From: Polyangiaceae bacterium
Lineage (GTDB): Bacteria; Myxococcota_A; Polyangia; Polyangiales; Polyangiaceae
Assembly (NCBI GenBank): GCA_046351395.1
Contig: JAXLYP010000017.1
Coordinates: forward strand, 1,508-65,507
Direction of reading: 5' to 3'
Length of the DNA stretch: 64,000 nucleotides
Below the pieces are notes generated by a model, which saw nothing but the letters and a program-made list of their open reading frames with translations, did no database searches and was not told where the DNA came from. The first letter of the stretch is position 1. Every line of letters starts with the position of its first letter. Positions 13,910 through 29,270 of the stretch are shown here, one piece after another. The position numbers were made by a program, and so were the translations under genes.

Positions 13910-13948
13910 GCGAAGCTCGTATCGCCTTTCGGCCCTCGCTCCAAGCGC

Positions 13949-14003
13949 ATGGATCTCTCCGAAAGAGGGGATGAGCACCGCGTTTCAACGGGATGGGGCG
14001 CTA
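13949..14003. repeat. Truncated third copy of the TIR-bounded intergenic element (right-terminal ~55 nt only)
   Basis: ggatctctccgaaa...gcaccgcgtttcaacgggatggggcgctac aligns with the last ~55 nt of the copy at 22349-22529 (ggatctctccgaaatcggctgcatacctcggcgtttcatgatggtcggtgtctac). As in that copy, the terminal cta overlaps the TAG stop of the adjacent minus-strand gene (14001). Confidence 0.5.
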
Positions 14004-15157: not shown

Positions 15158-16117
15158 TCACCACTCCCAATTCGTGCGCAGGTGCTCGTCCAGCTCTTCC
15201 CAAAACAGGGCGCGACACGGGACAGGCGACCGCGAGCTCGCCACGGAGCGCCCTGTCGGCTCGAGCGTCTGTGCGAGGCGTGCCTTCCATGCCTCCGCGG
15301 ATTCACCGGCTTCGACCGGCGGGAGGGACACATTGAACTTCCAAAGGTCGCGCGCGGGCTTCGGTTGCACGGTGTCGAGCTCCGCCGGCAGTTCGTCGCC
15401 ACAGTCGAGGACGAGGAACGTGGGCGCCTCGCGGCTCCCCGCGAAGAAGTGGAGGTAGATGCTGCGACCCTCCAGACTCCTGCGAAAGATGCTCCCGACG
15501 TCCCATGGGAACGGCGCGCGCTTCGTCCTCTTCCGGGAGCGGGGCGCTGTGCGCGGGGCGCTCTCGGGCGCTGCGGCGAAGAGACGCGCGACCTCGGCCA
15601 GGGCCCTGCGACGAACGTCCTGGGCGGACCGGTCGGGGTAGAGTCGTTCGAGCACGAGCGGCTGTGACTGTCGGGCGACGGCGCGCCCGAGCATCTCGCG
15701 CGCTGGGCCGTCCACCCGGCCGTCCATGAGCAGTCGCGCGAGCCCCGTCGCGATCACGGTCTCGTCGAGGACGTACACGTCCTGGTAGAAGTCCTCGATC
15801 TCGGCGAGCGCGCGCCGCACCGCCGGCTCGCTCGCGATGTCGGCTGGGTAGCCCGCGGACTCGAAGTCGGAGACGATCTTCGCGAGGATTGTGGCGAGCC
15901 CCGTTCGGGGGCTCGCGTCCCGAAAGTCTGCGAACTCCGAGACCGCGTCGCGCCCGGCGTCCGACCCCATCGGCCCGCTATCGACCGCCCAGAGAAGCTC
16001 CGTGTCCTCGCCGAGGATGGCCGCGGCGCTGGGGTGGAGCTCGGCCCCGTCCGGGAGGAGGTGGGTGAGGTCGACCGCCATCCCACGCGCATACCACCCA
16101 TCGACTGGCGCGCGCAC
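15158..16117 (-). CDS. Hypothetical protein
   Basis: 319-aa ORF with balanced composition (ELHPSAAAILGEDTELLWAVDSGPMG..., IYLHFFAGSREAPTFLVLDCGDELP...). No known motif recognised. Confidence 0.5.
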   Translation of the reverse strand: MRAPVDGWYARGMAVDLTHLLPDGAELHPSAAAILGEDTELLWAVDSGPMGSDAGRDAVSEFADFRDASPRTGLATILAKIVSDFESAGYPADIASEPAVRRALAEIEDFYQDVYVLDETVIATGLARLLMDGRVDGPAREMLGRAVARQSQPLVLERLYPDRSAQDVRRRALAEVARLFAAAPESAPRTAPRSRKRTKRAPFPWDVGSIFRRSLEGRSIYLHFFAGSREAPTFLVLDCGDELPAELDTVQPKPARDLWKFNVSLPPVEAGESAEAWKARLAQTLEPTGRSVASSRSPVPCRALFWEELDEHLRTNWEW

Positions 16118-16141
16118 GCCCTCGGAGCGACGTCGTTCAAG

Positions 16142-16780
16142 CTAGGGCAAACCCCCAATGCGCTCGAACGTCACGAAGTTGTAGTCGGCGCTCCCGGACG
16201 TGTTCCAGGTGGGCGGCGCGTCGTGGTGGAAGTTCAGGGACAGCTTCTGGCCCTTCGTGCAGCGCGTCGTCACCGTCCCCATGATCCGCGCATAAGTCTC
16301 GGTCGTCGAGAGATCGTGGATCACCGTCGCCGTTCCGCCCTCGACGGTCAGGTTCAGGCTCATGTTGGCGCCCCCGACTGGCAGCGTCCCCGCAGGGAAC
16401 TCGAGCGCCGCCGTCACGCGGTAGAGACCGGCGACGGGGCAGGCGTAGTCCCCCGTGTTGGGGTTCATCGCGTCGTCCGTGTCGTAGTCCTTGGTGTAGC
16501 CCACGACTTTCACGCCCGGTCCGGCCGCGAGCATCTGGCTCGCGTTCTGTGTGTAGCGCGCGGCCACGGTTCGCTCAAGCGCCACGAGGCGATCGTCCGC
16601 CTCCTTGAACAGCTTAAGGAGGCTCGAGGCCGAGACCGGCTTGCCGGTGTCGATCCATTGGGTGTCTGCCATCCAGGTCGCGTGTGCGCTCGTGACGAGG
16701 CCGGCGGAGAGCGCGAGCGCGCAGGCGAACGCCGCGCGCTTCACGCGAGGAGATGCTTCGATTTCGATCCGGATTCGCAT
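16142..16780 (-). CDS. Secreted protein (hypothetical; possible C1q/TNF-like beta-sandwich C-terminal domain)
   Basis: ATG 16780 gives MRIRIEIEASPRVKRAAFACALALSAGLVTSAHA (signal peptide). The remainder of the long ORF 16142..18385 upstream is Arg-rich junk. Confidence 0.55.
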   Translation of the reverse strand: MRIRIEIEASPRVKRAAFACALALSAGLVTSAHATWMADTQWIDTGKPVSASSLLKLFKEADDRLVALERTVAARYTQNASQMLAAGPGVKVVGYTKDYDTDDAMNPNTGDYACPVAGLYRVTAALEFPAGTLPVGGANMSLNLTVEGGTATVIHDLSTTETYARIMGTVTTRCTKGQKLSLNFHHDAPPTWNTSGSADYNFVTFERIGGLP

Positions 16781-16803
16781 GCCCGAAAGGGTACACGATC
16801 GAG

Positions 16804-18255
16804 TCAGGCCGCCGCGGGCGCCGGCGCGGGCTCCGGTGGGGAGGGCGGAGCCGCCCAGCGGCCGCGCTGGAACAGGACCCCGGCGAGCACGGCTTGAGAC
16901 GAGTAGGCGATCGCGATCGCGATGAACACTCCGCGGGGGCCGAGCCCGACGACCTCGGACAAGAGATACGCGAGCGGGATCTTCACGCCCCAGAAGCAAA
17001 TGACGTTCACGACCATCGGGATGCTCGTCTTGCCCGCGCCATTGAACGCTTGGATCGCGACCATGCCGTACCCGAAGAACAGGAAGCCGAGCGCGACGAT
17101 CCGAAGACACTCGACGCCGTACGCCTCGATCACGGGGACGTCCGTGAAGAGGCGAATGAGGGGGTGCGCGAGCGCCACGAAGACGACGCTCACCACACCG
17201 AGGAACGCGACGTTGTACTTCGCGATCGTGTTCACCGCGCGCTTCGCGCGCTCCGGCTGCTTCGCTCCGAGGTTCTGTCCCACGAGCGTGGCCGCCGCGT
17301 TGCCGAGGCCCCAGCACGGGAGCAGCACGAAGATCGCGATCCGGATCGCGAACGTGTACCCCGCGAGCGCGTCGCTCCCGTGGAGCGAGAGGATGCGCAC
17401 GAGGCCGAGCCAGCTCGCCGTCTCGATCAGCGTTTGGAAGCTCGCGCCGACGGAGACCTTGAAGACCTCGCGGATCACGTCCAGCTGGACGCGCACGTGG
17501 CGCGCGAGGACCACGAGCCGGCGCTTGCCGCCGAGGAGCATGAACACCTGGAACGCGACGCCCACGCCGCGGCTCACGGTCGTCGCCACGGCGGCGCCCG
17601 TGACGCCCATCCGCGGGAACGGGCCCAACCCGAAGATGAGGCAGGGGCTCAACGCCATGTTGAGGAGGTTCGAGATCCAGAGCGTGCGCATCGAGATCGT
17701 CGCGTCGCCGGTGCCGCGGAACGCGGCGTTGATCACGAACAGCAAGAAGATCGTCACGCTCCCGCCGAGCATCACCGCCGTGTAGCTCGAGCCCGTCGCG
17801 ACGAGGCTCGGCTCCGCGCCCATCGCCGCGAGGAGGCGCGGCGCGAAGATGGCGCCCACCCCGCCCACGACCGCGGCGAGCAGGACGCTGAGGCCGATGA
17901 CCTGCACGGCGGCGTTGGACGCGCCCTCCGAGTCCTTCTCCCCCGTCTTTCGCGCGATGATCGCGGTCGCCGCGGCGGACATGCCCATCGCGAGGGCGTA
18001 GATGATCGACAGCATCGCCTCCGTGAGGCCGACCGTCGCGACCGCGTCCGCGCCGAGGCGCGACACGAACAACATGTCGACGACCGTCAGCAGGGACTCC
18101 ATCGACATCTCGAGGACCATCGGGACCGCGAGGAGGATCACGGCGCGCTCGAGCGGCACGCGCGTCATGTCGTCGTCCGTGCCGCGCACCGCGGCGCGGA
18201 GGGTCGCCCAGAGGGAAGGTCGTTCGGCCGTGGGTGTGGCGGGGTCGGCTGTCAT
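16804..18255 (-). CDS. MATE family efflux transporter
   Basis: ATG 18255 (MTADPATPTAERPSLWATLRAAV...). 483 aa with 12 predicted TM helices. Typical MATE N-terminus (RAVILLAVPMVLEMSMESLLTVVDMLFVSRLGADAVATVGL) and Q-rich loops. The upstream part of ORF 16804..19236 is junk. Confidence 0.85.
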   Translation of the reverse strand: MTADPATPTAERPSLWATLRAAVRGTDDDMTRVPLERAVILLAVPMVLEMSMESLLTVVDMLFVSRLGADAVATVGLTEAMLSIIYALAMGMSAAATAIIARKTGEKDSEGASNAAVQVIGLSVLLAAVVGGVGAIFAPRLLAAMGAEPSLVATGSSYTAVMLGGSVTIFLLFVINAAFRGTGDATISMRTLWISNLLNMALSPCLIFGLGPFPRMGVTGAAVATTVSRGVGVAFQVFMLLGGKRRLVVLARHVRVQLDVIREVFKVSVGASFQTLIETASWLGLVRILSLHGSDALAGYTFAIRIAIFVLLPCWGLGNAAATLVGQNLGAKQPERAKRAVNTIAKYNVAFLGVVSVVFVALAHPLIRLFTDVPVIEAYGVECLRIVALGFLFFGYGMVAIQAFNGAGKTSIPMVVNVICFWGVKIPLAYLLSEVVGLGPRGVFIAIAIAYSSQAVLAGVLFQRGRWAAPPSPPEPAPAPAAA

Positions 18256-18397
18256 GCGATGTCCAGTGTCCGTCCCGCCCCTTTTGCCGCGAGAACGCTC
18301 GCGTGGCCACCGAGACGTGCGACCCGCCAAGGACCTGACCCCGGAACCAAGAATCGCTCGACGGACGCGCTCTCCACCAACACACTGGAGCCGGTCG

Positions 18398-19131
18398 ATG
18401 GTCTCCCGAGGCGCCGTCATCCTGGTCTTCGTCGCGATCCTCGCGGGCTGTGGCGCGTCGGCCCGGAGCCCGTTCGATCCGCGCGTCATGGAGCGGCGGC
18501 TCGCGTGCACGTCGTACGAGACGGCGACCGACGCGACGCTTCCGGGCCCGCCCCCGCTCTCTCGCGACGGCCGGGCCCGGTCGGACTTCGACCTCGAGCG
18601 GCGAGGGGAGACCCCCGAGCCCGGGCGGCCGAGCGATCTGATGGCGGAGGCGACCGAGCTCTTCGACGCGCGGCCGTGCCGCTGCTCCAGCGCGTCATCC
18701 GCCGCGAGGGGCAGGACGACGCGGGCAACGTGGAGCTCGCCACCTATCAGCTCGGCGTCGCCTACTACCACTCCGGGCTCTTCACGGCGTCCCTCGACGC
18801 GTTCGCGCCCATCGCGTCGGACCCCGCGCACCTGATGCACCACGAGACCCTCTATTGGCTCGTCGATCTGGCGCTCGAGGAGGAGACGAACCTGAAGGCG
18901 ATCGACCTCAGTTATCAGTACCTCGGGGAGAACTACTACGAGCTCGACTCGACGAACCGCGAGCTCGAATACCTCATCCAATACATTTGGGGCCGCGCCT
19001 ATTACCGCGTGGGCCTCTGGGACCAGGCGATCCGCAAGATGGAAGCGGTCGCGCGCGATCCTCGCTTCGCCCGCATCGCGACCGATTGCGCGAGCCTCGC
19101 GAAGCAGTTCGTGCACCCGCCCGGCGAGTGA
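18398..19131 (+). pseudogene. TPR-repeat lipoprotein (BamD/YbgF-like) interrupted by an apparent frameshift near 18690
   Basis: ATG 18398 preceded by GGAG gives MVSRGAVILVFVAILAGCGAS (lipobox). That frame reads ...DLMAEATELFDARP and then low complexity. A second frame from about 18685 reads ...LLQRVIRREGQDDAGNVELATYQLGVAYYHSGLFTASLDAFAPIASDP...YYRVGLWDQAIRKMEAVARDPRF (TPR-like) and runs to the stop at 19131. The two halves join into one plausible TPR lipoprotein only across a 1-nt frame change. Confidence 0.5.
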
Positions 19132-19222
19132 GCGCACGCGATGGGCCTCGGTGTTGCGCCGCGTGCGCGAGGGCGCGCGGCCGCGACGCAGCGCTCCCGA
19201 GGAGGGGGGCGTGCGGCGCGGC

Positions 19223-20332
19223 TCACTCGCTCCCAACGTCTTTCGGGAGCAGCTCGCGCGCGACCTGGATGCGGAGAATCCCGTCCTTCACGCGCTGGTC
19301 GTCGCCCGTCTTCTCTCCTTCCATCACGAGCCGGAAGCCGAACTCACAGCCATTCAAGTAGCGGATCCACGCGGCGAAGACCTGGCGGAAAGGCTCCTCG
19401 GGCGAGAAGCGCTCGGCGCGCTTCACCTCGGCGGCCCACGCGGGGACGACGCGCTCCTCGAGGATCGAGGCGAACCGAGCGCGGTCGATCTCCTTCGCGC
19501 GGAGGGACGCGCTCGCCGCCTCATAGTCCTCCAGGATGGCCGCGATCGCCGCGCGGCTGCGCTCGATCTCCGCGCTCGTGCGCGACTCCGGGCTCGGCCC
19601 GGCGGTCACCGCGAGGACCCACACCACCGCGCTCAGGGCGAACACGCCCGCTCGTCTCAGGCGCGCGTCCCACGGGGGCGCGCGTCTCCGGGCGTCGAGC
19701 ACGAGCGCGGCCGCGTACCCCACGACGAACCCTCCGAAGTGCGCCGCGAACCCGAGCTCGCGCATCGCGAGGCCGGGCACGAGCGTGAGCACCGTCATCG
19801 TGAGCACCTTGATGACGAGCCACCTCCGCGCCGCCTCCGGGATCCGCTCCCTCTGCAGCCGGACCTCCGCGAGGAGGGCGCCGTACATCCCCATGATCGC
19901 GCCCGACGCGCCGATGTAGACCACGTCCGGCTGCCACCACGCGCTCGCGAGCGCGCCCGCGAGGCCCGACAGCAGGTACACGCCGACGAACGCGACGTTG
20001 CCGAGGATGGCCTCCGCGGCTCGGCCGATGAGCCACATGCCGAACAGGTTCGCCGCGAGGTGGAGCACCCCGTAGTGCAAGAACATCGACGTGAGCATGC
20101 GCCACGACTCCGCGCGGAGGGCGCGGCCGTGGAGCCCTCCCCATGCGCGGAGCGACGCCGTCGTCGGCGCGAGGACGGACACGCCCTGCGTCGCGAGCGC
20201 CGCGAGCACGGCGACGTTCGCGACCATCAGCACGTAGACGACGTAGACGCGCGCTCCGAGCGACGCGACGAACGCCCGCTCCGCAGCGCGGCCGCTCGTG
20301 CGTGGGGGTGGGGTCTCGTCTCGCCCCTCCAT
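19223..20332 (-). CDS. Rhomboid family intramembrane serine protease with C-terminal soluble extension
   Basis: ATG 20332 (MEGRDETPPP...). Six TM helices. Catalytic GASGAIMG (GxSG) and the His in AHFGGFVVG. The ATG overlaps the TGA stop of the upstream kinase (cgcTGATGgag). Confidence 0.8.
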   Translation of the reverse strand: MEGRDETPPPRTSGRAAERAFVASLGARVYVVYVLMVANVAVLAALATQGVSVLAPTTASLRAWGGLHGRALRAESWRMLTSMFLHYGVLHLAANLFGMWLIGRAAEAILGNVAFVGVYLLSGLAGALASAWWQPDVVYIGASGAIMGMYGALLAEVRLQRERIPEAARRWLVIKVLTMTVLTLVPGLAMRELGFAAHFGGFVVGYAAALVLDARRRAPPWDARLRRAGVFALSAVVWVLAVTAGPSPESRTSAEIERSRAAIAAILEDYEAASASLRAKEIDRARFASILEERVVPAWAAEVKRAERFSPEEPFRQVFAAWIRYLNGCEFGFRLVMEGEKTGDDQRVKDGILRIQVARELLPKDVGSE

Positions 20333-22338
20333 CAGCGCGCGAGCTGTGCGCGCAGCGCTCCGCAGCGCTCGCCGAGCCAGAACTGAAGGAGAGTCTGTCG
20401 ACGACCCCGTCGACGGTGAGCACCCCCGCGGCTGGCGGAGTGCGCGTGGATACCGCGGAGCGCGCTGCCGAGGTCGCCCGTGACGACGAGCGCGGCGCGC
20501 GCGGCGGTCGCGTGTGCTCCCCGGATCGTGCGCCCCAGATCCGCGACGGAGGCCGACTGCAACAGGCGATCGACCTTCTCGCCGAGCGCGTCGCGCTCCG
20601 CGGGCCGCAAGTTCTGTCGGAGCATCGCGGTGATCGGCGCCGTCTCCGCGTGCATCGCCGCGGACCGCCCCGTCGCTTCGGCGAGGCTCGTCACGAGGTT
20701 CCGGAGGTTCTCGGTCGTCCCGAAGAAGTGCGCCGCGTAGAGCTCGGGCCGGAGGCGCGCGAGGGATCGCGCGGCCACGAAGAGCGCGCGCGGTGGTGAG
20801 AGGATCGCGAAGAACGACGCGCTCGCAACGCACGTCGGCGGCGCGCCGTGGTGGACCGCGACGGGGACGGCGCTCTCCGCTCGCACGAGGACGCGGGGCG
20901 TGTGGATGGCGAGGAGCGCCGCCGCGCGGAGCACCGCCGCGAGCGGCTCGGATGGCGGCGTGTGAGGGTCGAGGGGCCACGTGCGTTCGCCGGCGGGCGC
21001 GCTTCGCGCGCCGCTCGCGCGCGCGCGCGGCGCGGCCGCGCCGCCAAGTACGTCCACGAGGGGCAGCGCGAGATCCTCGTGCAAGAGCGCGCGCCACGCG
21101 GCATCGTCGAGCGGGACCGTCAGCGTCGCGGGGCGAGGGGGAGCGCCCGCGAGCGCCGCCTCGCTCGGCGACGCGTCCTTGAATGCGGAGAGGAGGGTCG
21201 CCGCTCTCCACGAAAGATCGCCGTCCCCCGTGCTTGCAGCGAACGAGAGGAGCTCGCGGACGAGCCGCGGCTGGCGCGGCGTGCGCTCGAACTCCGCGCG
21301 CACGTGCGCGATCGGCCGGCGACCGCCCGTGACTTTCGCCGGCTCGTCCGGCTCGACGAGATCGGGGTCGATCTCGTCGATCTCGTCGATCTCGTCGATC
21401 TCGCCGATCTCGTCGATCTCCTCGAAGTCCGCGGGATCCAGGAACTCCTCCTGGGCGCCGCCCCCCAGGAGGACCGGTCGGAGCGCCTCGAACGCCTCGC
21501 GGGCGCTCGGAAAGCGGCGCGCCGGATCGCGCGCCACCGCGACGAGGAACCACGCGTCGAAGCCTGGCGGGAGCGCGCCGCGCACGCCGCGCCGCGCCGC
21601 GCGCACACTCGGCGCCTCGATGGGATCCATGATCACCTCGCGCAGAAGGGCGTGCACGCTCGAGTCGGAGTCCGTCGCCGCGTTCCAATAGTACGCGCCC
21701 GTGAGGACCCGAAACGCGATGAGACCGAGCGCCCACACGTCCGTCGCCGGGGTGATGCGGCCCTTCGAGTCGGACTGCTCGGGCGCCATCCAGAGCGGCG
21801 TGCCCATCGATTGCGTCGCCTGGCTCACCGCGCTCGCGACGACCTTCGCGATCCCGAAGTCGAGGATCTTCACGTGGAGGTCGGCGCCGATCCTCCGCGA
21901 TCGGGCGAGGAACACGTTCTCCGGCTTGAGGTCGCGGTGCACCACGCCGCGCGCGTGCGCCGCGGCGAGCCCGTGGCAGAGCTGCGCGAGGATCACCGCG
22001 GCGTCCGCGGCGCTCTTCGCGCCCGCGCGCGTGAGGTGCGCGGCGAGATCTTCCCCGGAGAGCAGCTCCATCGCGAGGAACGGCGTCCCCGTCGGAGCGT
22101 CGACGCCGGCCGCGACCACCTCGACGACGTGGTCGCTCTCGATCGACGCCGAGATCCGCGCTTCCTGCACGAAGCGCTCGCGGAGGCGCGCGTCGCTCAC
22201 CAGGTTCGGGTGCATGAGCTTCAGGGCGCGCTGGCGGCCCGTGGAGAGCTGCTCGGCGACGAACACCGAGCCCATCCCGCCCGCGGACAACGGCCGAAGG
22301 ACGCGGAAATCGCCGCCTACGATCGCGCCCGCCTTCAT
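20332..22338 (-). CDS. Ser/Thr protein kinase with acidic (EID)n repeat linker and long C-terminal domain
   Basis: MKAGAIVGGDFRVLRPLSAGGMGSVF, ALKLMH, HRDLKPENV, DFG and APEQ. Linker FEEIDEIGEIDEIDEIDEIDPDL is encoded by a 9-nt tandem repeat. The stop overlaps the rhomboid start. An RBS (GAGGAG) lies 5 nt upstream of ATG 22338. Confidence 0.8.
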   Translation of the reverse strand: MKAGAIVGGDFRVLRPLSAGGMGSVFVAEQLSTGRQRALKLMHPNLVSDARLRERFVQEARISASIESDHVVEVVAAGVDAPTGTPFLAMELLSGEDLAAHLTRAGAKSAADAAVILAQLCHGLAAAHARGVVHRDLKPENVFLARSRRIGADLHVKILDFGIAKVVASAVSQATQSMGTPLWMAPEQSDSKGRITPATDVWALGLIAFRVLTGAYYWNAATDSDSSVHALLREVIMDPIEAPSVRAARRGVRGALPPGFDAWFLVAVARDPARRFPSAREAFEALRPVLLGGGAQEEFLDPADFEEIDEIGEIDEIDEIDEIDPDLVEPDEPAKVTGGRRPIAHVRAEFERTPRQPRLVRELLSFAASTGDGDLSWRAATLLSAFKDASPSEAALAGAPPRPATLTVPLDDAAWRALLHEDLALPLVDVLGGAAAPRARASGARSAPAGERTWPLDPHTPPSEPLAAVLRAAALLAIHTPRVLVRAESAVPVAVHHGAPPTCVASASFFAILSPPRALFVAARSLARLRPELYAAHFFGTTENLRNLVTSLAEATGRSAAMHAETAPITAMLRQNLRPAERDALGEKVDRLLQSASVADLGRTIRGAHATAARAALVVTGDLGSALRGIHAHSASRGGAHRRRGRRQTLLQFWLGERCGALRAQLAR
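21368..21425. repeat. 9-nt tandem repeat (gatctcgtc) x~6.5 encoding (EID)n in the kinase linker
   Basis: Direct reading: gatctcgtcgatctcgtcgatctcgtcgatctcgccgatctcgtcgatctcctc. Confidence 0.8.
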
Positions 22339-22348
22339 CCGCTCCTCG

Positions 22349-22529
22349 CTAGAGCACCGGACACGTCGAGACCCGAACGAATGCGCTCGAGTTCGAGGGA
22401 GAGGCGCACGCCCGAGGAGCGAGCGCCCGAAGCCGACTCCGCATCATGCCCGGAGCAGCGCGACGAGGCCGTTTGGATCTCTCCGAAATCGGCTGCATAC
22501 CTCGGCGTTTCATGATGGTCGGTGTCTAC
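22349..22529. repeat. TIR-bounded ~181-bp intergenic element, copy A (MITE-like)
   Basis: Starts ctagagcaccgg and ends cggtgtctac. About 85% identical to the reverse complement of 28085-28266 over the full length. Its left end lies 10 nt upstream of the kinase ATG (22338). Its right-end cta doubles as the TAG stop of the cyclophilin gene. Confidence 0.7.
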
Positions 22530-23347
22530 GGCGCGCAGCGCGTGATCGCGATCGAGTTCATGTGGATCGGGACGAGGGGCTTGTCGTTCGCGTCCGTCAT
22601 CACCTCGGTGATCGCCTTCACGACGTCCACCTCGGCGCAGTGGCCGAAGATCACGTACTTCCCGTCGAGCCCGCTCTGATCGACCTCCGCGACGATGTAG
22701 AACTGGCTCCCGTTCGTGTTCGTGTGCGGCCCGGAGTTCGCGTACGCGAGCGTTCCGGGGGTGTGGCTCAAGGCGGGATCGATCTCGTCGGCGAACTTGT
22801 AGCCCGGGCCTCCGGTGCCCTCGCCGAGCGGGTCACCGCCCTGCGCGACGAAATTGTCGATGACGCGGTGAAAGATCAGCCCGTCGTAGAACCGCGTGCC
22901 CTTGAACCAGTGCGTCCCCTTCCTGAAGGGCCGCCGGCCGCGCGCGAGGCCGACGAAGTTCGCGACGCCCTTCGGCGCGGACTCGGGGAAGAGCTCGCAC
23001 GTGATCGAACCCATCTCGGTGTCGATGATCGCGCGGAGCGGCCCCGGGCCCTCCGGCAGTCCCGCGAGCGCCTCTTCCATCGTGAAGTCGCCCATCTCGG
23101 GATCCTTGCCCGTGCCGAGATCGACGGTCGGGAGCGTCGTGTCGTCCGCGGGGCACTGCGTGATGGGCTCGCCCGAGCTGCTCGAGGAGCCGGTGTCCGC
23201 GGTCGTCGCCGTGGTCGTCGACGAGGTCGTCGCGTCGGCGCTCGACGAGGACGTGGCGCCGCCCGTCCCGGGCGCGTCCGTCGCGCTCTTTTCGCACGCG
23301 GTGGTGAGGGCGGCGAGCGCCGCAGCGAGGAGGTGAGCCCTGCTCAC
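22526..23347 (-). CDS. Peptidyl-prolyl cis-trans isomerase, cyclophilin type, lipoprotein
   Basis: GTG 23347 preceded by GAAGGGAG gives [20 protein letters not shown] (lipobox), then a Ser/Thr-rich linker. Cyclophilin motifs FHRVIDNFVAQGGD, GSQFYI and the conserved W. Confidence 0.85.
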   Translation of the reverse strand: MSRAHLLAAALAALTTACEKSATDAPGTGGATSSSSADATTSSTTTATTADTGSSSSSGEPITQCPADDTTLPTVDLGTGKDPEMGDFTMEEALAGLPEGPGPLRAIIDTEMGSITCELFPESAPKGVANFVGLARGRRPFRKGTHWFKGTRFYDGLIFHRVIDNFVAQGGDPLGEGTGGPGYKFADEIDPALSHTPGTLAYANSGPHTNTNGSQFYIVAEVDQSGLDGKYVIFGHCAEVDVVKAITEVMTDANDKPLVPIHMNSIAITRCAP

Positions 23348-25353
23348 GAGCGCGCTCCCTTCGGGGCGCGCTCGCTCCGCGAGCGGTCGCCCGCCCACTC
23401 CGTCCGCTGGACGACGGGGAGCTGCAGCGCGCGCTCGCGGTCGAGGTCGAGCGAACCGACGTGGAGCGCGATCGGTGCCTGCACCCACTTGAAGATCGAT
23501 CGGGTGAAGAGGCGCGCGAACTTCTCCGCGAAGCCCGAGAGCTTCTCCTTCGGGAGGCTGGGGAACAGGCTCGGGAGCGCGTCCGCGAGCTCGTCCGCGG
23601 CGAGCTTCTCTGCTCCGTAGAGGTAGAGGCACGCGTCGAGCACCTCGAACGGCATGAGCTCCTCCTCGCCCGATTGGTTCGCGGCGAGCTCCGGACCCGC
23701 GGTCGTCCCGAGGGTGGCGGCGATCCCGGCGAACCCGAAGCGCGTGAGCAGCCGCTCCAGCATCGCGATGACGACCGTCTTGGGGAGGTTCGCGATGACG
23801 CTGAGCGCACCCTCGAGATCGCCCCCGACGGTGGTGTAGCCGAGCGACTTCTCGCTCATGTTGCCCGTCTGGAGGAAGAGCGCGCCGCTCGTGTTTGCCC
23901 AGTTCCACATGCGCTGACCGCGGATGCGCGCCTGGATGTTCTGGCTCGTGATCTCGGTCATCGCCGGTCCCCCTTCGCCCAGCATCGCGCGCGTCGCCTC
24001 CGCCTCGCGTCCGAACGCCTCCTCGATGGGGAGCGTCATGAAGGACGCGCCGAGATCCTCCGCGATCTGTTGCGCGGCCTTCTGCGTGCCGCCGCTCGAG
24101 AACCGTGTCGGCATGTAGAACGCGTGGATCATGTCCGCCATCGCCGCCTTCGCGGTCTCGTCCGTGAGCTCCGGGCGGATGAACCGGACCGCGCGCCACG
24201 CGATGAGGAGCGTGAGGAGGGAGTCCCGGCCTCCCGAGAGCGCGATGCCGATCGACTTGAACGCGCCCGTCTTCCGGAAGTAGTCGGCGACGCCGAGCGC
24301 GAGCGCTTCGAAGAGATCGTCGAGGAGCTCGTCCCGCGGCGAGAGCGTCCGCACCTCCTTGCTCGGGAGGAAGAACGTCGTCCCGGGGGCGGGCGCGGGG
24401 TACCGGAGCGCGGACGTGTTCGCCGTCGGCGCCTCCGAGCGGAGCGTCGGGACGGCGACGTCGACGGACCGGAAGGTCTCGAGGTCGCTCCGCCACGTGC
24501 TCGCCTCGCGGCGGCACCGCGCGGTGCGATCGAGATCGACGACCGCCGCGCTGAATCCTTCGCGGAAGCGCGGACCCTCGAGGATGGGCCGCCCGTTCTG
24601 GTTGATGAACCCGCCGCCGTCGAAGATGAGTCCGTCGTTCGCGCCGACCAGGTTCGCGTAGAGGACGGTGCACTGGTTGTCGGACGCGCGCGTCGCGATC
24701 ATCTCTCGCCGCGTCGCGACGACGCCCGTGCGGTACGGGGACGCGGAGACGTTTACGACGACCAACGCGTCGCTGTAGCAGCGGCGCCGCATCGGCCCGT
24801 CCGGGGACCAAATGTCCTCGCACACCTCGACGCCGATCGTGCCGAAGTCGAACCCGAACAGGTAGTCGCCGAGGGGGATCCGCTCCGCCTCGCGAGCGCG
24901 CCCGCCCGGCGCTGGAAGGGAGAGGGCGAGCCCAGGCGTCCCGCGCGAGAACGTGCGCATCTCGTAAAAGACGTTGTACGTGGGGAGCTTCTCCTTCGGG
25001 ACGACGCCCAGGATCTTCCCCGCGTGGATGACCGCGGCGCAGTTGAAGAGGTCCCCGCCGATCCCCACCGTCACGCCGACGACGAAGACCGTCGCGAGGC
25101 CCGCGGTGGACTCGGCGAAGCGCCCGAGCTCGTCCCACTGCGTCTCGACGAACCCGCGCCACTGCACGAGATCCTCCGCCGCGTACCCGCCGACGACCTG
25201 CTCGGGGAACGCGGCGATCGTGACGTCGTCGCGCGCCATCTCGTCCGCGATCCGAAGGACGCGATCGACGTTCGAGCGGACCGCTCCGACCGTGGCGTTG
25301 ACGTTCGCGATCCCGAGCTTGATGAGGCGCATCGCCGCGGAGGGTAGTGCCAC
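23344..25353 (-). CDS. nadE: Glutamine-dependent NAD+ synthetase (N-terminal nitrilase/CN-hydrolase domain + NAD synthetase domain)
   Basis: 669 aa. N-terminal CN hydrolase features (Cys in EVCEDIW). C-terminal NadE P-loop [10 protein letters not shown] and the nadE-typical [16 protein letters not shown]. 4-nt overlap with the cyclophilin start. Confidence 0.85.
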
Positions 25354-25412
25354 GGCGTGCCCTGGTCGAGGCTTGCCCGCCCGCCGAAAGCGGTCGAGAG
25401 TCGCCCCTAGCC

Positions 25413-25955
25413 ATGAACCCCCTGCACGACGTCGCGCTCCCGATCGATCTGAAGGCGTTCTTCCCCGCGGTCGTGGAGATCCCCGCGGGATCGAAGCTCA
25501 AGTACGAGATCGACAAGGAGAGCGGCCTGCTCGTCCTCGATCGCGTCCTCTATTCGTCCGTCCACTACCCGCACAACTACGGGTTCATCCCGCGCACGCA
25601 CGCGGGAGACGGTGACGCGCTGGACGTGCTCGTGCTGATGCAGGGCGCCGTCCACCCGCTGACGATCGTCCGAGCCCGCGCGATCGGCGGGTTCCACATG
25701 ACGGATGACAAAGGCGAGGACCACAAGATCATCGCCGTCGCGATCGACGACCCCGCGTTCGCCCACTACCACGAGGCGGCCGAGCTCCCGCCCCACCTCG
25801 TGCGCGAGATCCGGCGGTTCTTCGAGGACTACAAAATCCTCGAGGGCAAGGCGAGCGAGGTCGACGAACTGTACGGCTCCGAGGAGGCGCTCCGAGTCAT
25901 CCAAGAGTCGGTGGACGCGTACGTGAAGCTCCAGGCGGAGAAGCGCTGGAAGTAG
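25413..25955 (+). CDS. ppa: Inorganic pyrophosphatase
   Basis: ATG 25413 ([15 protein letters not shown]...). Motifs [20 protein letters not shown] and AVAIDDPAF. 180 aa, typical family I PPase. Confidence 0.85.
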
Positions 25956-26154
25956 AGGCGGCGGCGGCGATCGACCGCGCTTGGAGGCGGTCCTCGGCCG
26001 TGCCGGGTCAGGGCCCAAGGACCCGCTGCGGACGAGATTCCGCACCTCGCGGAGGTTGTCGACCGGTCGATCGTGGTCACAGTGTTCTCCGCAACCCCTC
26101 CAACGAGAGCGACCGAGCTGGTTGCCCAAACCTCACCGAAAGGATCTCACGACC

Positions 26155-26412
26155 ATGTCCATCGTTCTCTTCCTCGTTTTCGGCTGGATCGTCGGCCTCC
26201 TGGCCCGCGCCATCATGCCGGGGAAGCAGCCGATGTCCCTGATCATGACGTCCCTCCTCGGCGTCGCCGGCTCGTTCGTGGGCGGAGCGCTCTCGGCCGC
26301 GGTGTTTCACCACGACTTCCTGTCGTTCCGGACGACGGGCCTCATCGGAAGCGTCGTCGGGGCGCTCATCGTCCTCGCGATCGCCGGGCTCGTGAAGAAG
26401 GACAAGAAGTAG
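26155..26412 (+). CDS. GlsB/YeaQ/YmgE family membrane protein (transglycosylase-associated type)
   Basis: ATG 26155 preceded by AAAGGA. 85 aa with two or three TM helices (MSIVLFLVFGWIVGLLARAIMPG...GVAGSFVGGALS...GSVVGALIVLAIAGLV). Confidence 0.7.
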   Translation: MSIVLFLVFGWIVGLLARAIMPGKQPMSLIMTSLLGVAGSFVGGALSAAVFHHDFLSFRTTGLIGSVVGALIVLAIAGLVKKDKK

Positions 26413-26509
26413 CCCACCGCATCGGCGCTTTCGCGCGCGGCTCGCCTCGCCGGCCTCCCGAGTTGACGCACCTCCGAGCCAGGTGCGAGCCTTTGTCCAC
26501 GCAGCGCGC

Positions 26510-28084
26510 ATGGAGAGCCCGGCCGAAATCGGTGATCTGATCGCCGGCAAATACCGCGTCGACAAGGTCCTCGGGACCGGCGGCATGGGCGTCGTCGTGG
26601 CGGCGACGCACGTGGGCTTGAACGAGGTCAGAGCGATCAAGATGCTCCGACCGAAACTCGCGACGAACCCGGCCTACACCGATCGGTTCCTCCAGGAGGC
26701 GCAGGCGATCGCGCGCCTCAAGAGCGAGCACATCGCCCGCGTGCACGACGTCGGCATCCACGTGCGCGCGGACGGCCAGAGCGTGCCGTACATGGTCATC
26801 GAGTACGTCGAGGGCGGCGATTTTGCGACCGTCCTTCGGCAGCGCGGTGCCCCTCCCGTCGAGCAGGCGGTGACGTACGTCCTCCAGATCACCGAGGCGC
26901 TCGCCGAGGCCCACAAACACAACATCGTCCACCGGGACATCAAGCCGGCGAACCTCTTCCTGTCGACGAGCAACGACGGATCCGCGTGCGTGAAGGTGAT
27001 CGACTTCGGCATCGCGAAGACGGCCGCGAACCTCACGCAGGTCGGCGTGGTGCTCGGCAGCCCGCGCTACATGTCGCCCGAGCAGATCCGGGAGTCGCGC
27101 GACGTCGACGTGCGCGCCGACATCTGGTCCCTGGGGATCGTGCTCTACGAGCTCCTCACGGGACAGACCCCGTTTCAAGGTGGCGGCATCCTCGAGGTGT
27201 GCGAGCGCATCTTCGAGGACGACCCGGCGCGCCCGTCGCGGCTCCGCGCCGACGTTCCGGCCGCGCTCGACGCGGTGGTGCTGCGCTGCCTCGAGAAGGA
27301 TCGCGAGCGCCGCTACCCCCACGTCGCCGCGCTCGCGGAGGCGCTCGCTCCGTTCGCGACGGAGGACGCGCGCACCGTCGCGCAGCGGGTCGCGCGCGTG
27401 CTCGGCGTCGCCTTGCCGGCGAGGGTGCCGCTGCCCGCGGCGCCCGCGGTCGATCCATCGCCCAGCCACACGGACGTCGATCCCCGCCCGGTCGTGGTGC
27501 TCTCCACCCCCGATCCGCGCCCGCTCGGGCAGGACACGTCGACCGATCTTGGCCCGCCGAACGGCGCCGCGGCGCCTCCCGCGCCGACGCTCGTCTACGC
27601 CCAGCCCGGTCACCCGCGTCCTCCGTCGGGGCCTCGCGTCGGATCGGTGACGGAGACGTCCCTCGGCGCGATCGGCGCGGCGTCGCCCATGCCCGTCGGG
27701 GCTGTGTCGACGCTCCCCGCTGGGCGCGGGCGCCTGATCGCGATCGCTGCCGTGACGGGCGTCGCGGTCGCGGCGGTCGCGACCGCGATCGCGTGGCCCG
27801 CCGACCGAACCGCTCCGCCGAGCGCGGCGAGCGCGGCGGCGCCGTCGGACACGAGCTCCGCGCCCGCGCCCGCGCTCGCGAGCTACTCGGCCCCCATCCA
27901 CGCGGCCTCCTCCGACGCGAGCTCGAGCGCGCCGCTCACGGCGAGCTCGAGCCCCAGCGCATCGGCGCAGCCGTCGAGCGCTCCGCCCCCGCGCGCGACC
28001 TCGGCCCCGCAGCGCCCCGTCGGTCCGACGACCGCGCCGCCGCGATCGCCGGGCGGGCTCACGTCGAGCCGAGGCAGGATTTAG
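26510..28084 (+). CDS. Ser/Thr protein kinase with TM segment and Ser/Ala/Pro-rich C-terminal tail
   Basis: MESPAEIGDLIAGKYRVDKVLGTGGMGVV, AIKML, HRDIKPANL, DFG and SPEQ. TM helix LIAIAAVTGVAVAAVATAIAW. An alternative GTG start lies at 26483. The TAG stop at 28082-28084 is followed directly by the TIR element. Confidence 0.85.
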   Translation: MESPAEIGDLIAGKYRVDKVLGTGGMGVVVAATHVGLNEVRAIKMLRPKLATNPAYTDRFLQEAQAIARLKSEHIARVHDVGIHVRADGQSVPYMVIEYVEGGDFATVLRQRGAPPVEQAVTYVLQITEALAEAHKHNIVHRDIKPANLFLSTSNDGSACVKVIDFGIAKTAANLTQVGVVLGSPRYMSPEQIRESRDVDVRADIWSLGIVLYELLTGQTPFQGGGILEVCERIFEDDPARPSRLRADVPAALDAVVLRCLEKDRERRYPHVAALAEALAPFATEDARTVAQRVARVLGVALPARVPLPAAPAVDPSPSHTDVDPRPVVVLSTPDPRPLGQDTSTDLGPPNGAAAPPAPTLVYAQPGHPRPPSGPRVGSVTETSLGAIGAASPMPVGAVSTLPAGRGRLIAIAAVTGVAVAAVATAIAWPADRTAPPSAASAAAPSDTSSAPAPALASYSAPIHAASSDASSSAPLTASSSPSASAQPSSAPPPRATSAPQRPVGPTTAPPRSPGGLTSSRGRI

Positions 28085-28266
28085 CTAGAGCACCGATCAT
28101 GTTGAAACGCCGACGTATGCACCCGATTTCGGAGAGATCCACACGGCCTCGTCGCTCCGCTCCTCAGATGACGAGGAGTCGTCTTGCGGTGCTCGCTCCT
28201 CGGACGTGCGCCTCTCCCTCGAACTCGCGCGCATTCGTTCGGGTTTCAACCTGTTCGGTGCTCTAG
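28085..28266. repeat. TIR-bounded 182-bp intergenic element, copy B (MITE-like)
   Basis: ctagagcaccgatcatgttgaaacgccgacg...cattcgttcgggtttcaacctgttcggtgctctag. The terminal inverted repeats are 12/12 perfect and about 30/35 over the extended termini. It fills the spacer exactly, from the kinase stop codon to the GTG start at 28267. Confidence 0.75.
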
Positions 28267-29190
28267 GTGCGAACGTCGCTCTTCGCGATCGCCCTCGCCT
28301 CGCCATCCGTCGCGCTCGCCGCGCCCGGTCCCACGTCTGCGCAGGCCGAGGCGCTGTTTCAAGAAGGGATCGCGCTCGTCGATCAGGGGCAGCCCGCCCT
28401 CGGCTGCCCGAAGCTCGAAGAGAGCGAGCGGCTCGAGTCCCAGGTGGGCACCGAGTTCCGACTCGCGGACTGCTACGAGCGCATCGGGCGGACCGCGAGC
28501 GCGTGGGCCCTCTTCGTCCAGGTGCAGGGGAAGGTCGAGACGAAGGAGGAGATCGAGAAGGCGAAGGGACGCGTGGACGCGCTCGCGCCCAAGCTCACGC
28601 GCCTGCGCATCCTCGTGCCGGACGCCGTCGCGTCGCTCGTCGAGCTCGAGGTGCAGCGTGACGGTGTGCTCGTCGGTCGCGCGAGCTTCGGAGCGGCGGC
28701 GCCCGTGGACCCGGGGCCCCACACGATCCGCGTGACCGCGAAGGGCAAGGCGCCCTGGGAACGGCACGTCACGGCGGACGGGCCCGGCGCGACCGTGGAC
28801 GTGTCCGTCCCCGAGCTCGAGGCTTCGACCGAGGGGAGCGCGGGTGGCTGGGGCATGCACCCGCGGCGCGTGGCGGGCTTCGCGATCGGTGGTGCGGGGC
28901 TCCTCGGGCTCGCGATCGGCGGCGTGCTCGCGGGCGTCGCGGCGAGCACGTGGAGCGACGCGGAGGCCCTCTGTCCCGCGAAGAAGGGCTGCTCCGAAGA
29001 GGCGCACGCCGAGAGCCTCACCGCGCTGTCGCTCGCGGACGGCGCGACCGCGATGTTCGTGATCGGCGGTGCCCTCGCCGCGACCGGGATCGTCCTCGCC
29101 GCCATCCCGACGTCGCAGGGAAGCGCGGAGCGCGCGGCGGTGTGGATCGCGCCAACCTTCGGGGGCGCGCTCCTGAAGGGGACGTTCTGA
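28267..29190 (+). CDS. Secreted/membrane protein with PEGA-like beta domain and C-terminal TM helices (hypothetical)
   Basis: GTG 28267 gives MRTSLFAIALASPSVALAAPG (signal peptide). N-terminal TPR-like helix pair. PEGA-like segment LRILVPDAVASLVELEVQRDGVLVGRASFGAAAPVDPGPHTIRVTAKGK. Two C-terminal TM helices. There is no SD sequence, because the start abuts the repeat element, so the start is uncertain. Confidence 0.5.
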   Translation: MRTSLFAIALASPSVALAAPGPTSAQAEALFQEGIALVDQGQPALGCPKLEESERLESQVGTEFRLADCYERIGRTASAWALFVQVQGKVETKEEIEKAKGRVDALAPKLTRLRILVPDAVASLVELEVQRDGVLVGRASFGAAAPVDPGPHTIRVTAKGKAPWERHVTADGPGATVDVSVPELEASTEGSAGGWGMHPRRVAGFAIGGAGLLGLAIGGVLAGVAASTWSDAEALCPAKKGCSEEAHAESLTALSLADGATAMFVIGGALAATGIVLAAIPTSQGSAERAAVWIAPTFGGALLKGTF

Positions 29191-29270
29191 CGTGCGCGTC
29201 GACGCGCCCGGGCCGCTCACTTTCCCTCTCGCGCGCGCGGTCTCCGCGCCTCGAGGGGACGCCTGACTCC

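What the first reader, a model, noticed from the sequence alone, without database searches (positions are those of the whole stretch)
22349..22529. Copy A of the TIR element: provides the stop codon of one gene and sits 10 nt from the start of the next
Copy A runs from ctagagcaccgg to cggtgtctac, in the opposite orientation to copy B on the plus strand. That places it in the same orientation relative to the gene it precedes, the minus-strand kinase with ATG at 22338. Only cgaggagcgg separates the element from that ATG, and this spacer contains the RBS GAGGAG. At the other end, the terminal cta of the degenerate TIR is the TAG stop codon of the cyclophilin gene (22526-22528). The same stop-codon overlap is seen in the truncated copy at 14001. 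This recurring TAG / element / start architecture across three loci suggests either insertion-site preference for TAG or CTAG at gene ends, or a functional role as an intergenic punctuation or UTR module.
Basis: seen in the sequence. Interest (0 to 1): 0.7.

Follow-up and report, generated by a model that had tools for sequence, protein, structure and literature searches.

The report
Mobile hairpin repeat in stop codon
A 175-base non-coding jumping element (a MITE) has landed in the TA of the TAG stop codon between a cyclophilin gene and a kinase gene of a soil myxobacterium. A related bacterium still has the uninterrupted junction, so the "stop / element / start" layout is most simply a footprint of where the element inserts, with no evidence of a purpose-built signal.

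Summary
Copy A (22349-22529) and copy B (28085-28266) are 86% identical and inverted relative to each other. Each lies between two co-directional genes, in the same orientation relative to them. A decayed partial copy follows the TAG stop at 14001-14003.

Two empty sites settle the origin. A relative (L019; NadE 88%, cyclophilin 80% identical) has cyclophilin-TAG, a 20-nt spacer, then the kinase ATG. Another relative (L038) has kinase2-TGA-C-GTG where copy B sits.

The filled sites read TA-[GAGCACCG...CGGTGCTC]-TA. This fits a 175-176 bp element with terminal inverted repeats and a TA duplication, as seen for IS630/Tc1-mariner elements; from memory, some IS5-group elements do the same. Because the element starts with G, insertion into the TA of TAG rebuilds the stop. 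The stop codon existed beforehand.

In this 71% GC genome CTAG is eight-fold depleted and never falls inside a gene. Only 80 non-disruptive TA sites exist in 64 kb, and 12 of them are at stops.

I found no Rfam family, promoter, terminator, coding signal or transposase, and no other copies in the public collections.

Verdict: a new family of an ordinary kind of element (a MITE). A relay reading frame like that of mycobacterial MIRUs remains an untested possibility.

The parts
22352..22526 (-). Copy A, the element proper (175 nt). Read on the minus strand it is GACACCGACC...CGGTGCTC. Its left terminal repeat has lost one base compared with copy B (GA-CACCG against GAGCACCG).
   Evidence: Alignment of A with B: 86% identity. 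The element is absent from the orthologous junction in L019.
22527..22528 (-). The TA on the upstream side of copy A. These are the T and A of the cyclophilin stop codon TAG (22526-22528). The G of that codon (22526) is the first base of the element.
   Evidence: Sequence. L019 has ...GCGCCG TAG at the same codon. The cyclophilins are 80% identical and end at the same residue.
22350..22351 (-). The second TA, which I read as the target-site duplication on the downstream side of copy A. It is followed by the host G (22349), which was the G of the original TAG.
   Evidence: The sequence reads CGGTGCTC-TA-G-CGAGGAGCGG-ATG. The boundary is inferred from the point where A/B similarity ends and from the symmetry of the inverted repeat.
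22336..22348 (-). Host spacer CGAGGAGCGG, carrying the Shine-Dalgarno-like GAGGAG, plus the kinase ATG (22336-22338). This is not part of the element.
   Evidence: The empty site in L019 has its own 20-nt spacer, CTCCGCGGAGGACCGCGGCA, with GGAGGA before the orthologous ATG.
28088..28263 (+). Copy B, the element proper (176 nt). It is flanked by TA at 28086-28087 and at 28264-28265, inside a C..G context, so the target was CTAG. The terminal inverted repeat is perfect for 12 nt (CTAGAGCACCGA), matches at 22 of 24 positions, and the arms are about 70% complementary over the whole half-element.
   Evidence: (pair I3: 47-nt arms, 81%). It folds as one long hairpin: RNA z = -4.4, DNA z = -5.8. It is absent from the orthologous junction in L038.
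28082..28084 (+). TAG stop of the upstream Ser/Thr kinase gene (26510-28084). It lies 1 nt before the CTAG target of copy B.
   Evidence: The L038 orthologue ends ...GGLTSSRGKI-TGA at the same residue.
28267..28269 (+). GTG start of the 307-aa secreted-type protein. It follows immediately after copy B's terminal TAG, so the former upstream context (GGCAGGA...) is now 184 nt away.
   Evidence: P0241, a 100% identical protein from an NCBI record, has the same length. In L038 the orthologous GTG lies 1 nt after the kinase stop.
13930..14001 (-). Relic copy T. Only the stop-proximal arm is recognisable (about 70 nt). It begins with the G of the TAG stop (14001-14003) of the gene 14001-15164(-). 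It ends about 20 nt before the ATG (13907-13909) of a lipoprotein-like gene.
   Evidence: nhmmer E = 0.011, alignment, sequence.
22349..22513 (-). Candidate reading frame inside copy A. Its ATG lies 12 nt after the cyclophilin stop, it runs for 54 codons, and it ends at the terminal TAG (22349-22351), 10 nt before the kinase ATG. The equivalent frame in copy B is 28098-28266. This is a speculative feature.
   Evidence: Translations. Such a frame is open in 9-12% of dinucleotide-preserving shuffles, and A/B differences fall 9/5/8 over codon positions 1/2/3. By my own hand count, GC at third codon positions is about 67% in this frame, against 86-94% in the window's genes.

Best explanation
Copy A is a non-autonomous transposable element, a MITE of 175-176 bp, belonging to a family not found in the collections I searched.

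How it got there. It has GAGCACCG... terminal inverted repeats and an overall imperfect-palindrome structure. A transposase encoded elsewhere would have cut and pasted it, duplicating a TA dinucleotide at the target. IS630/Tc1-mariner transposases do this, with CTAG as the classic IS630 target. From memory, some IS5-group (IS427-like) elements do as well.

The insertion at this site. In the ancestor, the cyclophilin gene ended in TAG and was followed by a short spacer with a ribosome-binding site and then the kinase ATG. The two genes were probably part of one nadE-ppiase-kinase-rhomboid operon. The element inserted into the TA of that TAG. Because its first base is G, the upstream TA+G re-forms the stop codon. 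The duplicated TA plus the original G form a second TAG at the far end, and the native ribosome-binding site and ATG stay intact just beyond it.

Why it looks like an architecture. The genome is 71% GC. TA is rare, CTAG is eight-fold depleted and absent from coding sequence, and insertions inside genes would be lost. Stop codons and their immediate surroundings are therefore among the few landing sites available.

Shown and inferred. The following are shown: the repeat, the inverted termini, the TA on both flanks, two empty orthologous sites, and the scarcity of targets. The following are inferred: the type of transposase, co-transcription of the flanking genes, and the idea that the element now sits in the mRNA as a long hairpin with at most a modulatory effect.
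For: Repeat family:
- A and B are 86% identical over 181 nt, E = 5e-57.
- There is a third, partial copy.

Termini:
- B carries CTAGAGCACCGA / TCGGTGCTCTAG, perfect for 12 nt and matching at 22 of 24 positions.
- B's hairpin z-scores are -4.4 as RNA and -5.8 as DNA.

Empty site for A:
- L019 keeps the PPase / NadE / cyclophilin / kinase order.
- NadE is 88% identical and cyclophilin 80% identical, ending at the same residue.
- The first 20 kinase residues match at 16 of 20 positions, counted by eye.
- Yet only 20 nt lie between the TAG and the ATG.

Empty site for B:
- L038 has the kinase ending ...SSRGKI-TGA, then C, then the GTG of the 70%-identical downstream protein.

Both filled sites read TA-[G...C]-TA.

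Target scarcity:
- CTAG occurs 7 times against 51.5 expected. Three of the seven are element ends, and none lies inside a gene.
- Of 438 TA dinucleotides, only 80 lie outside coding sequence or in stop codons.

No alternative function detected:
- No Rfam match.
- No promoter-like or terminator-like site.
- No codon-position bias in A/B differences.

Literature:
- Bacterial MITEs are under 200 bp, have terminal inverted repeats, terminal TA and target duplications, fold end to end, and often lie at gene 3' ends and are co-transcribed (PMC2229807, PMC3184786).
- IS630 makes a 2-bp duplication in CTAG (PMC2577343, Table 1, citing Tenzen and Ohtsubo 1991).
Against: - No autonomous element or transposase gene lies in the 64-kb window (Pfam scans), so the mobilising enzyme is unidentified.
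- Only two full copies and one relic are available. One pattern scan each of the genome and metagenome collections, with a core motif shared by all three copies, returned chance hits only. The window's own genome is withheld from the look-ups.
- The TA 'duplication' is part of the palindromic CTAG. The spacers of the window and its relatives are not alignable base for base. A 2-bp duplication therefore cannot be strictly separated from a 3-bp (TAG) one, or from none.
- All three copies lie at or next to a stop codon, yet only 15% of non-disruptive TA sites do (0.15 cubed = 0.003, a post-hoc figure). All three also have the same orientation. TA targeting alone does not fully explain this.
- Copy A no longer folds better than shuffled sequence (z = -0.5).
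Confidence: 0.85

Rival explanations
1. The element is a MITE by origin but has been domesticated, or was adapted from the start, as an intergenic expression module for operon junctions.

Its internal reading frame starts 12-13 nt after the upstream stop and ends exactly at the terminal TAG. That TAG abuts the GTG of the gene after copy B and lies 10 nt before the kinase ATG after copy A. Such a frame could relay terminating ribosomes across the insertion, as proposed for mycobacterial MIRUs. Alternatively, the long hairpin could set the stability or processing of the mRNA, as described for ERIC and Correia elements.
For: - The frame is open in both copies, with a start codon near the 5' end and its stop at the element's last three bases.
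- There are no indels between A and B inside the frame.
- All three copies have the same orientation relative to their genes.
- All three lie at or next to stops, against a 15% expectation.
- Copy B separates a formerly 1-4-nt stop-start junction, leaving no Shine-Dalgarno sequence before the GTG. Some compensating mechanism would be useful there.
- There is a MIRU precedent (PMC12548453), and ERIC elements are reported to affect mRNA decay (PMC3184786).
Against: - An equally open frame arises in 9-12% of dinucleotide-preserving shuffles. Four of six frames are open in A and two of six in B.
- The two copies share ancestry, so they are not independent evidence.
- A/B substitutions are spread evenly over codon positions (9/5/8), and 13 of the 19 differing codons are non-synonymous.
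- GC at third codon positions is about 67% in this frame by my own hand count, against 86-94% in real genes.
- In the relic, the corresponding frame runs out of phase into the next gene.
- The relatives manage without the element.
Confidence: 0.1
2. The element belongs to the single-strand (IS200/IS605-type, or REP/RAYT-like) class of palindrome-associated elements. These insert immediately 3' of a short target, here (G/T)TAG, without making a duplication. That would place every copy exactly after a TAG.
For: - All three copies can be read as starting right after NTAG: GTAG|ACACC for A, TTAG|CTAGAG for B, GTAG|CGCCC for the relic.
- The element is strongly hairpin-forming.
- REP elements have a conserved GTAG/CTAC head (my own knowledge; see also PMC2817692, which I saw only as a search result).
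Against: - On this reading the left ends differ in length by 5 nt between A and B. On the TA reading they differ by a single-base deletion.
- Copy B has a perfect 12-nt terminal inverted repeat that includes the CTAG. This is typical of DDE cut-and-paste elements and is not a feature of IS200/IS605 ends.
- At 175 nt, the element is much larger than a REP.
- No Y1 transposase lies in the window.
Confidence: 0.04
3. The sequence is not mobile. It is a structured non-coding RNA or regulatory palindrome (an attenuator, terminator or protein-binding site) duplicated at a few operon junctions by ordinary recombination.
For: - Its position is intergenic and probably transcribed.
- The predicted hairpin is stable.
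- One pair in the alignment fold changes on both sides while staying paired.
Against: - The orthologous junctions of two relatives lack it precisely, while the flanking codons are conserved.
- It has terminal inverted repeats with TA flanks.
- There is no Rfam match even at E <= 1.
- There is no T-run or promoter consensus.
- The flanking genes at the three sites are unrelated in function.
Confidence: 0.01

Closest known systems
RUP (repeat unit of pneumococcus), a MITE thought to be mobilised by IS630-Spn1
   Same: Short, non-coding and intergenic. It has terminal inverted repeats and inserts at TA with TA at both ends. Mobilisation in trans is inferred (PMC2229807).
   Different: RUP is 107 bp, AT-rich, present in about 100 copies, and has a known IS with matching ends. 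The element here is 175 bp and about 65% GC. Only about 3 copies are visible and no partner IS is known. There is no sequence similarity.
IS630 / Tc1-mariner superfamily target choice (TA duplication within CTAG)
   Same: Copy B sits in C-TA-G with TA on both sides. Copy A sits in G-TA-G (PMC2577343, Table 1, for IS630).
   Different: No transposase has been linked to it. From memory, IS5-group elements such as IS427 also have GAG... ends and make 2-4-bp duplications containing TA, so the superfamily is not settled.
Correia/NEMIS elements of Neisseria and ERIC elements of enterobacteria
   Same: Imperfect palindromes of 100-160 bp with TA at the termini. They are often placed just downstream of genes, are co-transcribed, and fold into a long hairpin by end-to-end pairing (PMC2229807, PMC3184786).
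   Different: Those families have shown effects, including promoters, RNase III or RNase E processing, and IHF sites. Nothing comparable was detectable here, and there is no sequence similarity.
MIRUs (mycobacterial interspersed repetitive units)
   Same: Repeats located inside operons of a high-GC bacterium. Their small internal ORF is coupled to the flanking gene's start, which is thought to keep the insertion harmless (PMC12548453). The element here also has a frame running from just after the upstream stop to just before the downstream start.
   Different: MIRUs are 40-100 bp, are often tandem, and have no terminal inverted repeats or TA duplication. The open frame here is not statistically distinguishable from chance.

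Membership tests
Bacterial MITE (non-autonomous DDE-type element) | Small size (roughly 50-400 bp) and no protein-coding capacity of its own | tested here: met
   The element is 175-176 bp. Open frames show no codon-position bias, and the candidate frame has low GC at third positions (about 67% by my hand count, against 86-94% in real genes).
Bacterial MITE (non-autonomous DDE-type element) | Terminal inverted repeats | tested here: met
   Copy B: 12 of 12, then 22 of 24 positions match, and the 47-nt arms are 81% complementary. Copy A: one end has a 1-nt deletion.
Bacterial MITE (non-autonomous DDE-type element) | Target-site duplication flanking the element | tested here: met
   TA lies on both sides of A and of B. 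Its length (2 bp, or 3-4 bp) is not strictly resolved, because the duplication is embedded in the palindrome CTAG.
Bacterial MITE (non-autonomous DDE-type element) | Evidence of mobility: filled and empty orthologous sites | tested here: met
   There are two independent empty sites, L019 for A and L038 for B.
Bacterial MITE (non-autonomous DDE-type element) | Multiple dispersed copies in the genome | tested here: inconclusive
   The 64-kb window has two full copies and one relic. The scans of the public collections found none.
Bacterial MITE (non-autonomous DDE-type element) | An autonomous IS with matching terminal repeats | not testable with these tools
   The 54 predicted genes and ORFs of the window scanned against Pfam include no transposase.
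IS630/Tc1-mariner-derived MITE | TA duplication, with preference for CTAG | tested here: inconclusive
   B is in CTAG, while A and the relic are in GTAG. This is compatible with IS630 but, from memory, not exclusive to it, since IS5/IS427-type elements are also possible.
REP / RAYT or IS200-IS605-type palindromic element | Short (20-40 nt) palindrome or subterminal hairpins; no terminal inverted repeats; no target duplication; insertion 3' of a fixed tetra- or pentanucleotide | tested here: not met
   The element is 175 nt, has a perfect terminal inverted repeat and has TA on both flanks. On this model the left ends would differ by 5 nt between copies.
MIRU-like relay-ORF repeat | An internal ORF whose start and stop are coupled to the flanking genes' stop and start in all copies | tested here: inconclusive
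   The frame is present in A and B but is expected in 9-12% of shuffles. It is absent or out of phase in the relic.
Any curated RNA family (Rfam 15) | A match to a covariance model | tested here: not met
   There were no hits at gathering score across the window. At E <= 1 there was only a chance hit to rli23 (19 bits against a cut-off of 45).

The most novel reading that the evidence does not exclude
The element is a stop-codon specialist. Its transposase, or selection acting on it, directs it to the TA of TAG stops at tight operon junctions, and its sequence is built to make that harmless.

- Its first base, G, restores the upstream stop.
- The duplicated TA plus the host G creates a second TAG that closes an internal 54-55-codon relay frame.
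- That frame begins 12-13 nt after the first stop and delivers ribosomes to the downstream start, which follows after 0 nt in copy B and after 10 nt in copy A.

This would be a MITE counterpart of the MIRU coupling trick. It would explain three things: why three of the nine TAG stops in my gene model of this window carry a copy, why all copies share one orientation, and why copy B is tolerated between a stop and start that lie 1 nt apart in the relative (4 nt in the reconstructed pre-insertion site), with no Shine-Dalgarno sequence left.
Probability: 0.1. Interest if true: 0.6.

Novelty: new member of a known kind. Interest (0 to 1): 0.3.

Why it matters
As it stands, this is mainly useful for annotation. 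It defines a previously uncatalogued MITE family in an uncultured Polyangiaceae genome. It explains three odd-looking intergenic regions, and it warns against reading regulatory meaning into the stop/element/start pattern.

It is also a clean textbook case, with two empty sites, of how target specificity shapes insertion in a very GC-rich genome. A transposon that needs TA is funnelled into stop codons and operon junctions.

If the relay-frame or hairpin idea proved true, it would show a second, independent way besides MIRUs for a mobile element to neutralise its own polar effect inside operons. That would bear on how translational coupling tolerates insertions.

Tried and rejected
**Searches for more copies**
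- BLAST of copy A against plasmids in distant mode: no match.
- Pattern ATCTCTCCGAAAN{12,19}GCGTTTCA, which matches all three window copies, scanned against 185,579 species-representative genomes and against the metagenome contigs. It returned 16 and 12 loci. All are of unrelated composition or taxa, and none matches the element profile. I treat them as chance hits.
- nhmmer with an A+B profile over about 320 kb of fetched loci, including about 150 kb of Polyangiaceae DNA: nothing.

**Access to the source genome**
- Exact look-up of window proteins failed. A 100% identical protein, P0241, shows the genome is an NCBI MAG labelled 'Polyangiaceae bacterium', locus tag U0414_26550, on a 246-kb contig. 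The genome is evidently withheld.

**Empty-site test with the wrong relatives**
- The distant kinase orthologues (43% identical; L017, L018) and the NadE relatives at 76-78% identity (L020-L025) have no cyclophilin-kinase synteny, so they were uninformative.
- P0001 turned out to be a multi-kinase-domain protein, not a close relative.

**Function tests**
- Rfam at gathering score and at E <= 1.
- Sigma-70 promoter and intrinsic terminator scans around both copies.
- Coding potential: six-frame translation, shuffles and codon-position counts.
- Covariation between only two sequences: one compensatory pair among 51, which is uninformative.

**Parent element**
- Pfam scans of 54 predicted genes and ORFs of the window found no transposase.

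**Literature**
- No paper in the searchable library describes MITEs in myxobacteria; the single hit was irrelevant.

**Rejected readings**
- A known RNA family, an intrinsic terminator, a small protein gene, and a REP/BIME.

Full report
**1. What is in the sequence**

The window is 71% GC. Its proteins match Polyangiaceae myxobacteria. One protein is 100% identical to an entry from an NCBI MAG named 'Polyangiaceae bacterium' (locus tag U0414_26550).

- ctagagcaccgg starts at 22349, and cggtgtctac ends at 22529.
- A 668-aa Ser/Thr kinase gene on the minus strand starts with ATG at 22336-22338.
- Ten bases (CGAGGAGCGG on the minus strand, containing GAGGAG) separate that ATG from the element.
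- At the other end, a cyclophilin-type PPIase gene (Pfam Pro_isomerase, 7e-39) ends ...ITRCAP-TAG, using 22526-22528.

**2. It is a repeat, and well beyond chance**

A second copy lies at 28085-28266 in the opposite orientation. It is 86% identical over 181 nt (BLAST E = 5e-57; alignment; 176-nt arms).

Copy B has perfect termini, CTAGAGCACCGA...TCGGTGCTCTAG. They match at 22 of 24 positions, and the two halves are about 70% complementary throughout. It folds as one long hairpin, with z = -4.4 as RNA and -5.8 as DNA. Copy A has lost one base in its stop-proximal terminus and no longer folds better than shuffled sequence (z = -0.5).

A profile of A+B finds one more weak match at about 13946-13994 (E = 0.011). 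It shares an exact 15-mer, TTTCGGAGAGATCCA, with A and B. It also shares GTTGAAACG with B at the same spacing, and it begins at the TAG stop 14001-14003 of another minus-strand gene. Only one arm survives, so I treat it as a relic.

Relative to their flanking genes, all three copies have the same orientation.

**3. The decisive evidence: empty sites**

NadE lies just upstream of the cyclophilin gene, and its closest database relative is 88% identical (P0121). The contig carrying it, L019, has the same order as the window: pyrophosphatase, NadE, cyclophilin, kinase. The cyclophilins are 80% identical and end at the same residue. By my count, the first 20 kinase residues match at 16 of 20 positions.

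At the junction the two sequences read:
- L019: ...GCGCGCCG TAG CTCCGCGGAGGACCGCGGCA ATG
- Window: ...GCGCGCCG TA[GACACCG...CGGTGCTC]TA G CGAGGAGCGG ATG

For copy B, the downstream 307-aa protein has a 70%-identical relative (P0242). The upstream gene on its contig, L038, is the orthologous kinase, ending ...GGLTSSRGKI against ...GGLTSSRGRI in the window. The junctions read:
- L038: ATC TGA C GTG
- Window: ATT TAG C TA[GAGCACCG...CGGTGCTC]TA G GTG

So at two independent loci a relative has an uninterrupted, very short stop-start junction where the window has the element. In both cases the element is bounded by TA on each side.

**4. What it is**

A 175-176-bp non-coding sequence with these properties meets the working definition of a bacterial MITE (PMC2229807, PMC3184786; see the membership table):
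- terminal inverted repeats;
- a flanking TA duplication;
- several dispersed copies;
- filled-versus-empty site polymorphism.

A 2-bp TA duplication inside CTAG is the classic signature of IS630 (PMC2577343, Table 1) and of the Tc1-mariner superfamily. From memory, some IS5-group elements (IS427-like, with ends beginning GAG) also make 2-4-bp duplications containing TA. I therefore leave the superfamily open.

No transposase gene is present among the window's predicted genes, so mobilisation must be in trans.

**5. Why it sits on stop codons**

The stop codon was not supplied by the element, because L019 has TAG at the same codon. The element inserted into the T-A of that TAG. Since its first base is G, TA+G re-forms the stop. 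The duplicated TA plus the original G gives the second TAG (22349-22351, minus strand), just before the native ribosome-binding site. The same logic fits the relic at 14001-14003. Copy B went into the CTAG one base after a TAG stop.

Such sites stand out because targets are scarce. CTAG occurs 7 times in 64 kb against 51.5 expected. Three of these are element ends, and the other four are intergenic or in a stop codon.

Using a third-position-GC gene model of my own, I counted 438 TA dinucleotides. Only 80 lie outside coding sequence or in stop codons, and 12 of those are in or within 6 nt after a stop.

Target specificity plus loss of gene-disrupting insertions therefore goes a long way. It does not go all the way: the chance that three insertions all fall at or next to stops is about 0.15 cubed, or 0.003. 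That figure is post hoc, rests on n = 3, and depends on my crude gene model. Three of the nine TAG stops in that model are occupied. I record this residue as a lead and draw no conclusion from it.

**6. Does it do anything now?**

The flanking genes are co-directional and tightly packed. The kinase stop overlaps the rhomboid start, and in L019 the NadE and cyclophilin coding sequences overlap by 4 nt. The element is therefore very probably transcribed within an operon mRNA. This is an inference.

I found none of the following:
- a sigma-70-like promoter or intrinsic terminator in or around either copy;
- an Rfam family, even at E <= 1;
- useful covariation, with only two sequences to compare.

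One feature deserves mention. In both copies a reading frame opens with ATG 12-13 nt after the upstream stop. It runs 54-55 codons and ends at the terminal TAG, which abuts the GTG of the gene after copy B and lies 10 nt before the kinase ATG after copy A. This resembles the relay ORF proposed for mycobacterial MIRUs (PMC12548453). It would be convenient for copy B, which has pushed the downstream GTG 184 nt away from its former context and left no Shine-Dalgarno motif.

The evidence for this frame is weak, however:
- Such a frame is open in 9-12% of dinucleotide-preserving shuffles.
- Two to four of the six frames are open anyway.
- A/B differences are spread 9/5/8 over codon positions, and most are non-synonymous.
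- GC at third codon positions is about 67% in this frame by my own hand count, against 86-94% in real genes.
- The relic does not keep the frame.

I give this reading about 10%.

**7. Rivals**

An IS200/IS605-type or REP-like element inserting 3' of NTAG without a duplication would also place copies after TAG. It requires left ends that differ by 5 nt between copies, and it ignores the perfect terminal inverted repeat. I rate it about 4%.

A non-mobile structured RNA is contradicted by the two empty sites. I rate it about 1%.

**8. Novelty and verdict**

The core-motif scan of the genome and metagenome collections, a BLAST against plasmids, and an element-profile search of about 150 kb of related Polyangiaceae DNA all found no copy. 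The searchable literature has no description of MITEs in myxobacteria. The family therefore appears new, but the kind of element is well known.

The insertion-site hypothesis is supported, and the 'punctuation module' hypothesis is not.

Interest is modest (0.3). It would be higher only if a whole-genome census showed true stop-codon specialisation or a conserved relay frame.

Noticed in passing
window 1-64000; CTAG at 16142, 22349, 25407, 28085, 28263, 32228, 56416: The tetranucleotide CTAG is about eight-fold under-represented: 7 occurrences against 51.5 expected from dinucleotide-preserving shuffles. It never occurs inside a predicted coding sequence. Three of the seven are termini of the element.
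   Followed up: yes
window 14001-30614 compared with the rest: In my crude third-position-GC gene model, 7 of 13 genes in this 17-kb stretch end in TAG, against 2 of 33 elsewhere (TGA dominates overall, at about 35 of 46). All three element copies lie in this TAG-rich stretch. I cannot tell whether this reflects chance, local composition or local hopping.
   Followed up: partly
window 28267-28269 and 28060-28084: After the copy B insertion, the GTG start of the 307-aa signal-peptide protein has no Shine-Dalgarno-like motif within 20 nt. Its former upstream context (GGCAGGA) is 184 nt away. In the relative L038, the stop and start are 1 nt apart. How this gene is now translated is unexplained.
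   Followed up: partly
window 21360-21440 (-): A 9-nt tandem repeat, (GATCTCGTC)n of about 8 units, lies inside the kinase gene 20332-22338. It encodes an acidic (EID)n linker between the kinase domain and the C-terminal domain.
   Followed up: no
window 6877-8967 (-): A 696-aa protein built from DUF4215 cysteine-rich repeats. At the DNA level there are 5-6 tandem units of 195 nt at 64-74% identity.
   Followed up: no
window 38000-40100: This 1.6-kb gap in my gene model contains RCC1-like repeats. Pfam RCC1_2 / WD40_RLD hits fall in two overlapping plus-strand frames (39031-39714 and 39270-39971), and a 43-nt motif recurs 6 times. It looks like a frameshifted pseudogene or an assembly error in a MAG.
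   Followed up: partly
window 28267-29187 (+) / protein P0241: This protein is 100% identical to an NCBI entry, 'MAG: hypothetical protein U0414_26550 [Polyangiaceae bacterium]', on a 246,456-bp contig. The source genome is therefore public but is withheld from the DNA look-ups used here.
   Followed up: partly
window 1919-3499, 10353-12605, 20332-22338, 26510-28084, 40094-41275: Five eukaryotic-like Ser/Thr kinase genes lie in 64 kb. Copy A lies just upstream of one of them and copy B just downstream of another. Given this kinase density, the association is most likely coincidence.
   Followed up: no
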